From assembly GCF_006345805.1 (NCBI RefSeq), contig NC_042997.1:155496001-155560000 (forward strand): DNA of 64,000 nt. Direction: 5' to 3'. Position 1 is the stretch's first letter; every line of letters starts with the position of its first letter. Below, piece by piece: positions 5,116 to 40,469 of the stretch. The stretch comes from Octopus sinensis (Eukaryota). The notes under the pieces were generated by a model. It was not told the origin of the DNA. It saw nothing but the letters and a program-made list of their open reading frames with translations, and searched no databases. The position numbers and the translations under genes were made by a program.

Positions 5116-6404
5116 CGAAGTATGCATATCCTGTACACTATTGTGGTAAATATTATTTTCCATGATACTCGTGAGCTTTAAATAACTGTATTTCTGTAAA
5201 TGCATTATTGTGATATCATGAAATAGCTCAGATTACACTCATACTGTAATTATCTGACTAGTCAGTTGGCTTCATTGGCATTCCAGTCAGAGTTTGCAGT
5301 AGGTTTCAGCACTTGCTTATTATTGATATAAACTGATTTTATTATAATTTTAATATATTAAGTTCATCGAAATCATGCTTAAAATTTGGAAATATTTATG
5401 GTCACTCGCTGAAATAACAGTAAGTGAGAATTAGGAGGTCTGCTCTACTTATTTACTTGAAGATTCGCCCAATAAGTCGCTCCATAGTTTGGGGACATTT
5501 TGGGGGGATTTTTTTTTTTCGATTTCTCTGCTGCTGTTTATGATGGATGCCATAAGCTAATGATACAACGCAAAAGGTCACAAGAAATGCTAACCAAACC
5601 GAGTTTCCCTTATATAGCACTCTACCGTCATAAAGAAAAAAAAAAGAAACGATAGCGACAAGGCATAGTTTAGTCCACATTTTTCTATGTCTGAATAAAA
5701 TACATCATGGCTATGGCTGAAATGTATTTGAACATAGCGATATATACTGGACGACCAGTTAGATATAGCATCCTAATCTCCCTCAATACATACCCTACCA
5801 TCTTGAAGTATAAAGTATATTGGATAATGTAGTTTTAGATACACTATATCTGAAGACATACAAAGGTTACCATGAACGAATGCTTTTCATCACAGTTCTA
5901 CAACATGTTCACAATGATGGTGGCAGGGGATTCAGCACCCTAGACCAGTTCTGCAATGTTCCCCCCTCTCCCAGCTCCCAGCAACCAGCTTTATAAAATG
6001 TGCTTCTTCTCATCCCTGACATGTACCTTTCCTTCTCCAGGTTTTCTTTTCTTTACCAACCATTATTCATACCAGCTGAAGAATGCAGTTGAAAAATTAT
6101 AGTTAACTTTCAAAAGAGTTAATTATAATTTATAAGTTTATAATCATGCATATTACCAAGTAAATCTGTTATCAGGTAAAATTTGAAATGTTTAACGCAA
6201 AATCGTATTACACAACACGATTTTCTCTTCCTCCGCTTCACTGCACCCCACTTCCTCGAAAATCACCTTATCGGATCTCAAAGTTTTCGTGCTTTTGGAT
6301 TAAGCAATTTCGTCAGAATTGATTAGAATTCGTGCGACACACCCAGATTTTGGTGCCCTTGTTTAGGAGTCAGTAAACATTTTTAAAGGTGAACTAAGGA
6401 AATA

Positions 6405-6508
6405 TTCGGTTGCTGCATAATTAACGACCGTTTTATAATCTAATTTACAAGTTTTATTTAAAATTTAGAAGAAAAAAATAAAACGGTCGTTAATTTTGCA
6501 CCAACCCA
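6405..6508. mobile_element. ~100 bp mariner-type MITE (MADE-like)
   Basis: TIRs GGTTGCTGCATAATTAACGACCGTTTT / AAAACGGTCGTTAATTTTGCACCAACC resemble mariner TIRs. Confidence 0.7.
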
Positions 6509-6848
6509 GGACGAATAAATAATGAATTCATCATCATACAATGCAGCGGAAGTAGATTTTTTTTTTTTTGGGAATGTAAATATTTTTCCTTATAAGCTTT
6601 CAACGTACAATATTGTAAAATACTTACTAACAGTGATATAAAGAACCTCACAACTACGTTAAAATCAAGTTTTAATTATGTGAGGCCGGCCTTCTCACTA
6701 TGCAAACTAGTTGACTGTCTACGATAGGAACCGGGAAACGAACAGCCCGTTGCTCCATTTGGTCCGATACGCATACTTCACTGAATATGAAATACTTGCG
6801 TCAGGAAACACGTGGTTTTAAATAAAATATTGCCATTTTTCAGCAAGA

Positions 6849-6920
6849 AGTTCTACGGGGTAATGATTGGCATTCAGGGCTTTGAGTTCAGCGAAACATT
6901 TTCAAGTCTCGATAGAAATG
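6849..6920 (+). pseudogene. tRNA-Gln(TTG) pseudogene, heavily substituted
   Basis: AGTTCTACGGGGTAATGATTGGCATTCAGGGCTTTGAGTTCAGCG..TTCAAGTCTCGATAGAA aligns to the intact copies. Confidence 0.8.
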
Positions 6921-7892
6921 ACAGTGTTAACTTTTTTCCAAATTTTTTCTTTTATCAACTGTTGTTTATATCAATAAGACACGTAACAGATCTTGAATCT
7001 TTTATGTTGCTGTCACAGATTTTGACATTTTGAATTTTGTTCCAATTGTTTCTAAATCTAGTATACTGATATACGATAATTATGGAAATAAAATTCATTT
7101 TTTGCCGTAAATTAATTTATAAAAAGTTAATAGCTTTTAAAGTTTGTAAATTTTGGGTAACTATAGCCAACCGAAAGCCACAGACACGTTGATGTCTGTT
7201 TCCATAGTAACAAGTGAAACTGAAGCGCGCTTAAAACTACTGGATGTTGGCGCTGGATATTACAAAGTAAATCTGTGATCTGGTAAAATTTGAAATGTTT
7301 CATGAAAAATCGTGTCACTACGACTCGAACCACGGTTTCCTCTCCACGTCACTCAAGTTCACCAGAAGTCGACTCATCGACTCTCAAACTTCATATATTT
7401 TGGAATTAAGAACATTTTTATTGAAAATTCATCAGAACTCGTGTGACACACTGACGCACACAAATTTTAGTGACCTTGTCCAGGAATTGGAAAACATTTT
7501 TCATGGCGCACCGTGTAGAATTGACGTCTTATGACCAACACGAATAAATAATGAGCTCATGATCATACAAGACTATGGAAATAGCTTGTCCTTTGTTTTG
7601 ATTCTCCTTTTAAGCATTTAACAAACATTATAAGCATTTAACAAACAATTAAGTAAAATGTTTTCCAACGGTGACATAAAGAATAACCACATACCCACGT
7701 TAGCGATATGTTTTAGTTACGTGAGACCAGCTTTCTCCCTAGGGGAACTAGTTGACGGTCTGCAGTAGAAATCGGTAAAATCCTCTGTTTGACCCGGTTC
7801 GCATGTATTCACTGAAAATGAAATATTGACTTCCGGATATATATAGTTTGAAAGTTAATTTCAGGACTAAATGTTTACAGGTATCTTTGATA

Positions 7893-23844: not shown

Positions 23845-24524
23845 TCATATTTCCACTTTCCACCTTTGTCGGAGCGGCTTCTGGTGAAAGATGGAGTTCG
23901 ATGCTACTGCCCTCATTTGAGTTTTTTGCTTAGATATTGGCTCATCCGGGATCTCGGCGAGCCAGAGGTCAAGTTCACGTTTGAAAACGTCTACATCCAC
24001 TCCATGGAGGCTCCTCAGATGCTTCGGCAGACAGTTAAACAGTTGTGGGCCCTTGAAACCCAAGCTATTGCAGTACATCATCCTTGCCCAAGATGAAGCA
24101 GTCGGCACAATGGGGACAGCACAGTGACGTCATGTTCGTGGTCTAGTATAGCTCTTTATTCCAAAGTTTGGTACCAGTCCTTCCAGTATCTTCCATAGAT
24201 ATATTACTGCATACCTCTCCCGCCTTCGTTCCAGGGAATAGAGTCGCAGCTCTTCCAACCTGTCCTAGTAATTCAATCGTTCCATTGATGCAACTTTCTT
24301 TGTGTAATGTCGTTGGACTGCTTCAAGCTCTGCTATCGTCCTTGTAGCTGAGAGCAGTAGTCCAGGCGGCTGGGGATAAATGACTTCCATAGTGTTATCA
24401 TAGTTTCTTGGTCCCTTGTGCGGAAGGTTCTCAGAATCCAACCAGCCGGTCTTCTGGATACTGCTACCATTTTGTTGATATGTGTGTGAAATGAGGCATT
24501 GTTGCTCATTTCTATTCCAAGATC
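23845..24524 (-). mobile_element. CR1/L2-group LINE ORF2 C-terminal fragment (disrupted)
   Basis: DLGI..HI..GWILRTFRTRD..LWKSF..RLDYCSQL and LYSLERRRERY..WKILEGLVPN motifs, frameshifted. Confidence 0.85.
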
Positions 24525-24963
24525 ATATATATATATATATATATATGAGTGGCTGGACAAACGATGCAGCGGGTTTGATCTGGACCGCAAGTCATTGTTT
24601 AACGATCTCTGCTGTGGATGATAACGTAATTTGCTTAGTATCCTTAGTACCCAGCGCCAGCCCTACACTTTAATAACTATGCTTCAAACAATAAGCATAA
24701 GGGCAGAAATTCGGTTAGGGGAAGGGTTAGTCGATTAACTCGACCTCAATAGTTCACTAATACTTGATTTTATCGAAACAGGATAGATGAAAGGCTAAGC
24801 CAAGGTCAGTCTTTTTTTTCTCCCTTTCGTGCTTCAGGGTTTGATAAAATAAAGCACCAATGAAGTACTGCAGTCTAATCTCTTCCCCCGCAAATTTTTG
24901 GTCTTATGCTTACGTTAGAAGCAAATGATAACTCCACAAAGGAGTGGCTTCAAGCAAGCAAAC

Positions 24964-25035
24964 AGTTCTATGGTGAAATGGCAAGAAATTTGGACTCTGA
25001 ATCCAATGTTCTGGTTTCAAATATCGGTAGGACCT
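24964..25035 (+). pseudogene. tRNA-Gln(CTG) pseudogene
   Basis: AGTTCTATGGTGAAATGGCAAG..TGGACTCTGAATCCA..TTCAAATATCGGTAGGACCT with D and T stems broken. Confidence 0.85.
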
Positions 25036-25141
25036 ACGGAGTTAACTTGCTTTCTCTTTAAGTATCAGTCGTTTATATAATTACTAGTGCATGACGTTGT
25101 TCTATGCCTGAAATAGTTAATACTTTAACATTTAAATTTAA

Positions 25142-25192
25142 TTTGTCAAAATATTTTCGTCGCTTCAAGACCGCGACCTGTTCACTGACAAA
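25142..25192 (-). ncRNA. Candidate minimal type I hammerhead ribozyme, G3-C8 core variant
   Basis: Reverse complement: TTTGTCA-GTGAACA-G-GTCGC-GGTCTTGAA-GCGAC-GAA-AATATT-T-TGACAAA. 7-bp stem I, 5-bp stem II, palindromic stem III. Confidence 0.6.
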
Positions 25193-26424
25193 GCTTCGTG
25201 CTGCATCTTAAATGGCTTATAAACACCTTCCACGCTGCAATTGTTTTCGTTCCAGCACACGATCTCAGATCAAGTCACTCGCTATGCAAGTACATCTCCG
25301 TAAAATTAATACTTTGTTTCATTGAAATATAAGTATAAATGCAAGACAGAATTCATAAAAAGGAGGTAAATCAATATTAAAATAAAGAAACGTTTAATTA
25401 ATCAAAATACTTTGTTAGTCGTTTAAACTTGTCACGCCGAGCTGAGCTTAATCATTAAGCGGGCCCTGGTTCGGGTCAATATCCCTTAGTTCTAGAGCCG
25501 GTGGAATTATCCAGAAGTGATGAGAAGAGATCAGATGGTCTTACCCTTTGGCCCAGTGTAAGAGGTAAGTATTTCATCTGGGAAGCCACGGTCTGCGACT
25601 CTTTGCTCTCTCCCACATCCTGGATACTGCGGTATATGGAAGTGTCACTGCTTTCATAACCGAACAGAACAAAATTCTTTAGTATTCGAACCTGTCAGTG
25701 AACTACTTCTTCCAGTCTGTGGCTTTTGAGTGTTTGTCATTGTTGGCGGCTCGCCTTACGAGGGTGCTTGGCTGTTCCAACGCCGCCGTGAAAGTGTTGG
25801 CTTGTTTCAATAGGTTCCGTTGAACCTTGTGGTGTGCGACCAATTAAGGAACTTGGTGTTGAACTGATGTGGGGTTTTTTCCTATTTTCTTTCTTTGTTC
25901 TTTTTCCTTTTTTTTTTCTTGCGGTTTTGAAACAGATTGAAACTTCGTACATTGGTGAAATGTCTCACGCAAAACATGGATTACTTTGAACATTTTTGAC
26001 AAAATTTAGTATTTTAGAAGTTATTTCATGTTAAAGTTGTCGTATCTGGGTAATTTCAACCAATCAACGGCGTGAAAAAAGTTATTGCTGTTGGCAATAG
26101 TAAGATAATGAGACATTCCACCAGCATACGATGTTTCAAACTGTTTATTCTTTTCTTTTCCTTTTATTCTTTTATTTGTTTCAGTCATTTAACTGCGGCC
26201 ATGTTGGACTAGGAGGAAGAGAGAGGGAGAAAGAGAGAGAGAAAAAGAGAGAGAGAGAGAGGGGGAGGGAGAAAGAGAGAGCGGAAAGAGACAGAGAGAG
26301 TGGAAAGATTTGTGAACCAAGTGGAAGACGGACAGATTTCACGAATCAAAATTTTCTTTGCTTTATAAAACACCGCAGCTCGAAGTTTAATTTCAAGATA
26401 AAATGTTGTCGCTTGATAATGTGA

Positions 26425-40397: not shown

Positions 40398-40469
40398 ACG
40401 TTCTACTCAGACATGAACTCGGATGGCTGGATTCAAAGTCCAGAGCGCCAACTATTACGCCATAGAACC
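40398..40469 (-). pseudogene. tRNA-Gln(TTG) pseudogene
   Basis: Full length, anticodon arm intact, D and T arms mutated. Confidence 0.85.

What the first reader, a model, noticed from the sequence alone, without database searches (positions are those of the whole stretch)
25117..25315. Minimal hammerhead ribozyme candidate with a compensatory G3-C8 core, inside a ~190 bp insert
Seen: the minus strand of 25142-25192 reads UUUGUCA GUGAACA G GUCGC(GGUCUUGAA)GCGAC GAA AAUAUU U UGACAAA. That gives a perfect 7-bp stem I, a 5-bp stem II followed by GAAA, and a 6-nt palindromic stem III before a UH site. The core is GUGAACA instead of CUGANGA, with one extra G before stem II. The unit is flanked by a 10-bp direct repeat TTAATACTTT (25117, 25306). 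Established: hammerhead positions 3 and 8 form a Watson-Crick pair, so G3-C8 preserves it. Minimal type I hammerheads with a palindromic stem III occur in Penelope-like elements and retrozymes and can cleave as dimers. Inference: this is a monomer of a PLE-derived or retrozyme-like family that a canonical CUGANGA search would miss.
Basis: partly seen in the sequence, partly recalled or inferred. Interest (0 to 1): 0.8.

Follow-up and report, generated by a model that had tools for sequence, protein, structure and literature searches.

The report
Core-swapped hammerhead in octopus Penelope retroelement
This 190-base insert is a broken-off end of a Penelope-type jumping gene whose thousands of copies carry a hammerhead-shaped RNA with two paired core letters swapped relative to its sister families, likely a naturally slowed self-cutting RNA, though cutting is untested.

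Summary
The motif and the 10-bp repeat are as described. The insert is not a retrozyme. It is a truncated, partly inverted end (pLTR) of a ~4.5-kb Penelope-like element (RT plus C-terminal GIY-YIG, Neptune/Nematis-type linker) in an octopus genome. The hammerhead lies on the inverted piece; the direct piece holds the first 30 codons of the element's ORF. G3-C8 is the family's master state: 6,354 exact C8-type matches (98 of 100 listed G3) against 239 G8-type (1 of 100 listed C3-G8). Two sister families keep C3-G8 at the homologous spot, with compensatory changes in stems II and III, so the swap is real covariation. Short copies stop at one point 16 nt upstream of stem I and often carry an extra G there (16 of 19; 0 of 48 long copies), which points to a capped transcription start. 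Ends are not enriched at the cut site (3 of 44), so the templates were mostly uncut. Cleavage is untested. I found G3-C8 in print only as an engineered rescue, but a key paper was unreadable. This scan noted G3-C8 candidates behind Penelope RTs in two other genomes. New variant of a known kind.

The parts
25117..25126 (+). Left target-site duplication TTAATACTTT; its last 5 bases overlap the end of the inverted piece
   Evidence: other copies have flanking duplications of about 8-16 bp where the site is not a TA repeat
25122..25208 (-). Inverted piece of the pLTR, from the inferred transcription start (+1 = 25208) to about +87
   Evidence: 91% over 87 nt to sense copy L073
25142..25192 (-). 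Minimal type I hammerhead motif with G3-C8 core
25178..25185 (-). Core GUGAACA plus inserted G (G3 = 25185, C8 = 25180)
   Evidence: genome counts
25159..25177 (-). Stem II, 5 bp with 9-nt loop; the loop varies between subfamilies while the stem is kept
25149..25158 (-). GAAA, palindromic stem III (AAUAUU) and U17; predicted cut between 25149 and 25148
   Evidence: numbering as in PMC4209133
25206..25208 (.). Head-to-head junction of the two pieces with 3-nt microhomology
25206..25305 (+). Direct piece of the pLTR (+110 to about +206)
   Evidence: 97% over 94 nt to L073; 95% over 98 nt to full-length L136
25212..25301 (+). First 30 codons of the element's RT-endonuclease ORF (MAYKHLPRCNCF...QVHLR)
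   Evidence: read; same N-terminus in full-length copies L136 and L144
25244..25305 (+). About 60-nt 'tail' between the two common 3' ends (about +150 and +206), inferred to be the two reverse-transcription start sites
   Evidence: PMC11167929
25306..25315 (+). Right target-site duplication TTAATACTTT

Best explanation
The insert is a truncated, partly inverted end of a high-copy Penelope-like retroelement, and its G3-C8 motif is that family's version of the pLTR hammerhead, likely a slow ribozyme that would cut only as a dimer or with help from the element's protein. Shown: full-length copies run pLTR - ORF (RT, then GIY-YIG) - microsatellite-rich 3' UTR - pLTR, with the hammerhead 16 nt after +1 and the ORF ATG at +116; G3-C8 and U17 are the family state, while sister families have C3-G8 and mostly C17. 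Inferred: RNA polymerase II starts at +1 (TATA-like run at -30) and caps the RNA. The element's RT starts internally at about +150 and +206 on the uncut RNA, runs to the 5' end and often copies the cap as an extra G. The cDNAs are joined head to head into AT-rich DNA with a target duplication. The window copy is such a product, with its inverted piece shortened. Because a cut at +59/+60 would remove the cap from the ORF-bearing RNA, a damped ribozyme is expected; the swap kept the 3-8 pair, and U17 would avoid the G3-C17 mispair.
For: Copy number and anatomy. Autonomous partner; motifs; 5 of 37 aligned relatives hit RVT_1 and 3 of 37 GIY-YIG; C-terminal part resembles GIY-YIG clusters (family on 13-18% of members). 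Core state; no variant at 5% or more at the core in 4 of 4 runs under four organism labels. Sister families: B 55 of 58 C3-G8, C 30 of 32 C3-G8; pairs 3-8, one in stem II and one in stem III change on both sides, 59 of 59 cells paired in a 6-row alignment. 5' wall: 48 of 113 ends at +1 to +10, 7 of 76 direct pieces reach upstream of +1. Extra G: 16 of 19 short ends (18 of 28 with the window-like set) against 0 of 48 long copies; loose-end consensus before +1 ends in G in 38 and 26 contigs of two runs. C3G/G8C partly restores cleavage of a Penelope hammerhead, which needs the element's protein, and uncut RNA is the template (PMC11167929).
Against: No cleavage data. No excess of 5' ends at the cut site (3 of 44, p 0.43). 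G3.U17 is predicted to pair (P 0.65-0.67) and extend stem I into an inactive fold; the stem III self-duplex is only -0.2 kcal/mol. Sister family B carries C9 instead of A9 in 55 of 58 copies, so core integrity is not strict in this clade, and B has U17 in 17 of 58 without G3, which weakens the G3/U17 link. 239 G8-type copies exist, 99 of 100 listed with a G3.G8 mismatch. Variation within the family looks like neutral decay (CpG sites) and says nothing about selection. The covariation rests on three families. The intact ORF itself has no Pfam hit.
Confidence: 0.65

Rival explanations
1. Same Penelope origin, but the motif no longer cuts: it is a hammerhead-shaped relic or a fold kept for protein binding or translation control, and G3-C8 was fixed in a master copy without selection for catalysis.
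For: No cut-site signature; predicted G3.U17 trap; family B has a non-canonical C9; hammerhead mutants do not impair insertion in vitro (PMC11167929).
Against: Two transversions that together restore the tertiary 3-8 pair, with U4, G5, A6, G12-A15.1 and U16.1 unchanged across families whose proteins are 51-54% identical. Single-swap states are rare (about 2% and 3.6% of copies).
Confidence: 0.25
2. The wall at +1 is a splice acceptor (branch-like CTAAC, pyrimidine run, CAG) as in Drosophila Penelope, not a transcription start; the hammerhead would sit at the start of exon 2.
For: The sequence upstream of +3 looks like an acceptor; in D. virilis the intron ends at helix I (PMC4209133).
Against: Short copies share no upstream exon, many keep the AG, and the base before it is G where the genome has C or T. 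No common upstream sequence among loose ends. The site could still serve as an acceptor in read-through RNA.
Confidence: 0.07
3. The insert is a monomer of a retrozyme that circularises after hammerhead cleavage.
For: Short, high-copy, minimal type I hammerhead; animal retrozymes derive from Penelope pLTRs (bioRxiv 10.64898/2026.07.22.740005).
Against: Inverted two-piece structure, ORF start included, ends at +1 and at the two tail ends rather than at the cut site, autonomous partner found. Among the first 100 listed tail matches only 4 pairs lie within 1.3 kb and there is no longer run.
Confidence: 0.03

Closest known systems
Minimal type I hammerheads in pLTRs of metazoan Penelope-like elements (Cervera and de la Pena 2014, PMC4209133)
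   Same: In the pLTR; G10.1-C11.1; one nucleotide between 9 and 10.1; short palindromic helix III; copies dispersed, some in opposite-strand pairs
   Different: Core pair is G3-C8 (that paper reports C3-G8 and U3-A8); inserted base is G (consensus H); 7-bp helix I; U17
PAc, Poseidon element of Anolis (Frangieh et al. 2024, PMC11167929)
   Same: Hammerhead at the pLTR-ORF junction; two 3' ends inside the ORF start bounding a tail; AT-rich targets; uncut RNA as template
   Different: There C3G/G8C is an engineered partial rescue, here it is the natural state; ORF starts 56 nt after the cut site rather than inside stem II; tail about 60 nt rather than 30-40; Zn-finger-like linker present
Neptune and Nematis clades of EN+ Penelope-like elements (Craig et al. 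2021, PMC8557442)
   Same: C-terminal GIY-YIG with CCHH, CX2-5CxxC linker, inverted truncated copies, tail, (TA)n bias
   Different: Clade placement not tested by a tree; a 'canonical' hammerhead descriptor would score this family as lacking one
Non-LTR retrozymes (PMC7229834)
   Same: Short, abundant repeats with a type I hammerhead
   Different: No tandem arrays seen, ORF fragment included, inverted structure, signature of a capped linear template

Membership tests
Hammerhead ribozyme, strict consensus | C3 and G8 as in CUGANGA | tested here: not met
   G3 and C8; no Rfam match at gathering score
Hammerhead ribozyme, minimal type I | Watson-Crick pair between 3 and 8 | tested here: met
   G3-C8; C3-G8 in sister families
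Hammerhead ribozyme, minimal type I | U4 G5 A6 A9, G12 A13 A14, A15.1-U16.1, H17 | tested here: met
   H17 = U
Hammerhead ribozyme, minimal type I | Stems I and II with G10.1-C11.1; palindromic stem III | tested here: met
Hammerhead ribozyme, minimal type I | Site-specific self-cleavage after H17 | not testable with these tools
   indirect sign absent: 3 of 44 ends at the cut site
EN+ Penelope-like element | Single ORF with RT and C-terminal GIY-YIG nuclease (CCHH) | tested here: met
   ORFs; motifs; Pfam hits only in relatives
EN+ Penelope-like element | pLTRs by partial tandem, inverted truncated copies, tail | tested here: met
   L136, L144; 44 of 76 events with an inverted piece, 39 of 44 ending at +142 to +152
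EN+ Penelope-like element | Hammerhead motif in the pLTR | tested here: met
Neptune/Nematis clades | CX2-5CxxC linker before the nuclease | tested here: met
   CQSNCAVC; definition in PMC8557442
Neptune/Nematis clades | RT phylogeny groups with reference Neptune or Nematis elements | not tested
   no named reference sequences were available from the tools
Non-LTR retrozyme | Head-to-tail tandem units, each with a hammerhead | tested here: not met
Non-LTR retrozyme | Circular RNA products | not testable with these tools
   only contigs of runs guessed to be RNA were served

The most novel reading that the evidence does not exclude
The first natural, family-wide G3-C8 hammerhead: a detuned ribozyme that sits 16 nt behind the cap of its own mRNA and works as a protein- or dimer-gated decapping switch, retuned independently in sister families (G3-C8 with U17 in one, C9 in another). 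The extra-G ends would also show that Penelope pLTRs are regenerated when the RT starts inside the 5' copy of the ORF start and runs to the cap.
Probability: 0.3. Interest if true: 0.75.

Novelty: new variant of a known kind. Interest (0 to 1): 0.52.

Why it matters
It supplies a natural test of the hammerhead's 3-8 tertiary pair, with closely related canonical families in the same genome as controls, and shows that CUGANGA descriptors miss whole Penelope families (here more than 6,000 motifs). The cap signature and the 5' wall give a testable route to pLTR formation, which PMC2377424 calls unexplained, and place the ribozyme where cutting would decap the element's mRNA.

Tried and rejected
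Rfam at gathering score: no hammerhead. Pfam on the family's own ORF: nothing significant. PDB profile search: one weak RT match at the catalytic motif. Structure prediction had not finished after six collections, so no fold evidence. Sequencing runs: no RNA holder listed on record; contigs of runs guessed to be RNA cover the pLTR but cannot show starts, cuts or strand. A more distant relative used as query found only families A and B among the scored hits. A TATA-based guess for family B's start site did not hold; its short copies stop near a different motif about 60 nt upstream of the core (few cases). Family A core tallies are biased by 30 loci fetched for G8 and by a passenger subfamily, so I used the genome counts instead. 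In one search, 21 of 97 rows were dropped as one passenger amplification. DNA around homologous proteins from other species could not be fetched. Literature: searches for hammerhead with G3-C8, C3G+G8C, C3-G8+Penelope, GUGANCA-type words, and Penelope+octopus returned only engineered swaps; Penelope-like + untemplated + cap returned nothing relevant. Lunse et al. 2017, which surveys Penelope hammerhead variants, was not held, and one supplementary file of PMC4209133 could not be searched; either may already show G3-C8.

Full report
Observation. The motif and the flanking 10-bp repeat are in the sequence as described. A descriptor that accepts any Watson-Crick 3-8 pair with stems of 5 bp or more finds this one site in the window and 1 hit in 60 simulated windows. 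The fold alone is unremarkable (z -1.8) and Rfam does not call it.

Host and copy number. The window lies in a 2.72-Gb genome. A protein named as Octopus vulgaris matches this genome at up to 99%, so the host is inferred to be an octopus. The insert hits a high-copy family: 2,691 first-look candidates, 40 scored, 86-96% identity; 3,235 exact matches to a tail motif.

Anatomy. Other copies show the unit in sense order: +1, hammerhead (stem I from +17, cut site +59/+60), spacer, ATG at +116, a common 3' end near +150 and a second near +206. The window insert is an inverted piece (+1 at 25208 to about +87 at 25122) joined by a 3-nt microhomology to a direct piece (+110 to +206; 25206-25305). Of 97 tail-anchored copies on contig 1, collapsed to 76 events, 44 have an inverted piece and 39 of those end at +142 to +152; all 76 direct pieces end at +195 to +209. 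The window's inverted piece is therefore shorter than usual.

Autonomous partner. Long copies continue upstream through about 1 kb of microsatellite-rich sequence into an RT-nuclease ORF. L136 and L144 are full length, with a 5' pLTR running into an ORF that begins MAYKHLPRCNCF, the same codons as window 25212-25301; L136 spans about 4.5 kb and its ORF is split by a frameshift. An unbroken 983-aa stretch in L140 has TDKSG, YVDD, the linker CQSNCAVC and a C-terminal VY..C..C..YIG nuclease with two later histidines. It has no Pfam hit itself; 5 of 37 aligned relatives hit RVT_1 and 3 hit GIY-YIG. By the definitions in PMC8557442 (passages; supplement search) this is a canonical EN+ Penelope-like element of Neptune/Nematis type; I built no tree.

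Is G3-C8 real covariation? Genome-wide, the C8 pattern has 6,354 matches (98 of 100 listed G3, 2 C3) and the G8 pattern 239 (99 of 100 listed G3.G8, 1 C3-G8). Runs under four organism labels show no core variant at 5% or more. The single C3-G8 hit belongs to another family, C (2,561 candidates), with core CUGAAGA plus the same inserted G. Family B (51-54% protein identity; 2,610 matches) has CUGAUGC plus G at the homologous spot. C3-G8 holds in 55 of 58 B and 30 of 32 C instances (one C row is a B cross-match). In a 6-row alignment across the families all 59 cells pair, and the 3-8 pair, one stem II pair and one stem III pair change on both sides. This is three lineages only. I fetched no ORF for family C; its link rests on the pLTR and ORF start, compared by eye. 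Variation inside family A is concentrated at CpG sites and looks neutral.

What the ends say. 48 of 113 5' ends fall at +1 to +10 and only 7 of 76 direct pieces reach upstream of +1. Where a short copy ends at +1, the preceding base is G in 16 of 19 (18 of 28 including loci chosen for likeness to the window), while 48 long copies have C or T there and never G. Nine of the 19 come from the G8-selected loci and two are the two ends of one insertion. Loose ends in two public runs give the same G. Copying of the cap as an extra G by reverse transcriptases is recalled knowledge; a TATA-like run lies 30 nt upstream (read). Ends are not enriched at the cut site (3 of 44, p 0.43). The window copy itself has no extra G.

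Mechanism. PMC11167929 (parts 1-2 of 4 read) shows for an anole element that the RT starts at two internal sites bounding the tail, that uncut RNA is the template, that the hammerhead cuts only with the element's protein, and that C3G/G8C partly rescues it. Family A fits that picture. A cut at +59/+60 would strip the cap from the ORF RNA, so weak activity is expected. G3.U17 is predicted to pair at P 0.65-0.67. PMC3884650 (one passage; data not shown there) says G3-C8 works worse with C17, which fits U17 in family A against mostly C17 in B and C, but B also has U17 in 17 of 58. Family B's C9 either shows independent detuning or shows that the core is decaying in this clade. Activity is untested.

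Comparison and novelty. Penelope hammerheads are well known (PMC4209133, parts 1-2 of 4 and supplement search). Natural covariation to U3-A8 is reported there and in PMC3088659 (passages). My searches found G3-C8 only as an engineered swap (PMC8495972 passage). Lunse et al. 2017 could not be read. Other papers seen: PMC6765202 (passages), PMC2377424 (abstract and discussion), PMC7229834 (passages), bioRxiv 10.64898/2026.07.22.740005 (part 1 of 5). Two unchecked scan notes describe single G3-C8 candidates behind Penelope RTs in other genomes; a search by sequence found nothing.

Verdict. Observation confirmed; Penelope origin close to certain; retrozyme reading rejected; a slow but real ribozyme is the most likely state. 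New variant of a known kind, interest 0.52.

Noticed in passing
window 15793-40469: Dispersed tRNA cluster: six intact tRNA-Gln, one tRNA-Pro, and two degenerate copies (24964-25035, 81 bp left of the insert; 40398-40469).
   Followed up: partly
L154:4639-4690 (family B): Sister family's hammerhead has C at position 9 instead of A in 55 of 58 instances, another non-canonical core, with both C17 and U17 subfamilies.
   Followed up: partly
L032, L033, L034, L040 and others on contig 1: One family-A insertion with an identical junction and flanks recurs in 22 of 97 tail-anchored rows; it was amplified as a passenger inside another high-copy repeat.
   Followed up: partly
L064 sense copy, +5 to +10 and +138 to +143: The predicted fold pairs the extreme 5' end with the bases just before the first common 3' end, closing the whole 5' UTR.
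   Followed up: no
L327-L356: G3.G8 mismatch copies (about 3.6%) occur across several subfamilies; in L144 the 5' pLTR has G8 and the 3' pLTR C8.
   Followed up: partly
window 23845-24662: Minus-strand frames with RLDYCS and VQRHYTK words that resemble the end of a LINE reverse transcriptase (resemblance recalled).
   Followed up: no
L094:4321-5799 and 6316-7350: A different Penelope-like ORF and a transposase-like ORF lie near a family-A copy (labels recalled from motifs).
   Followed up: no
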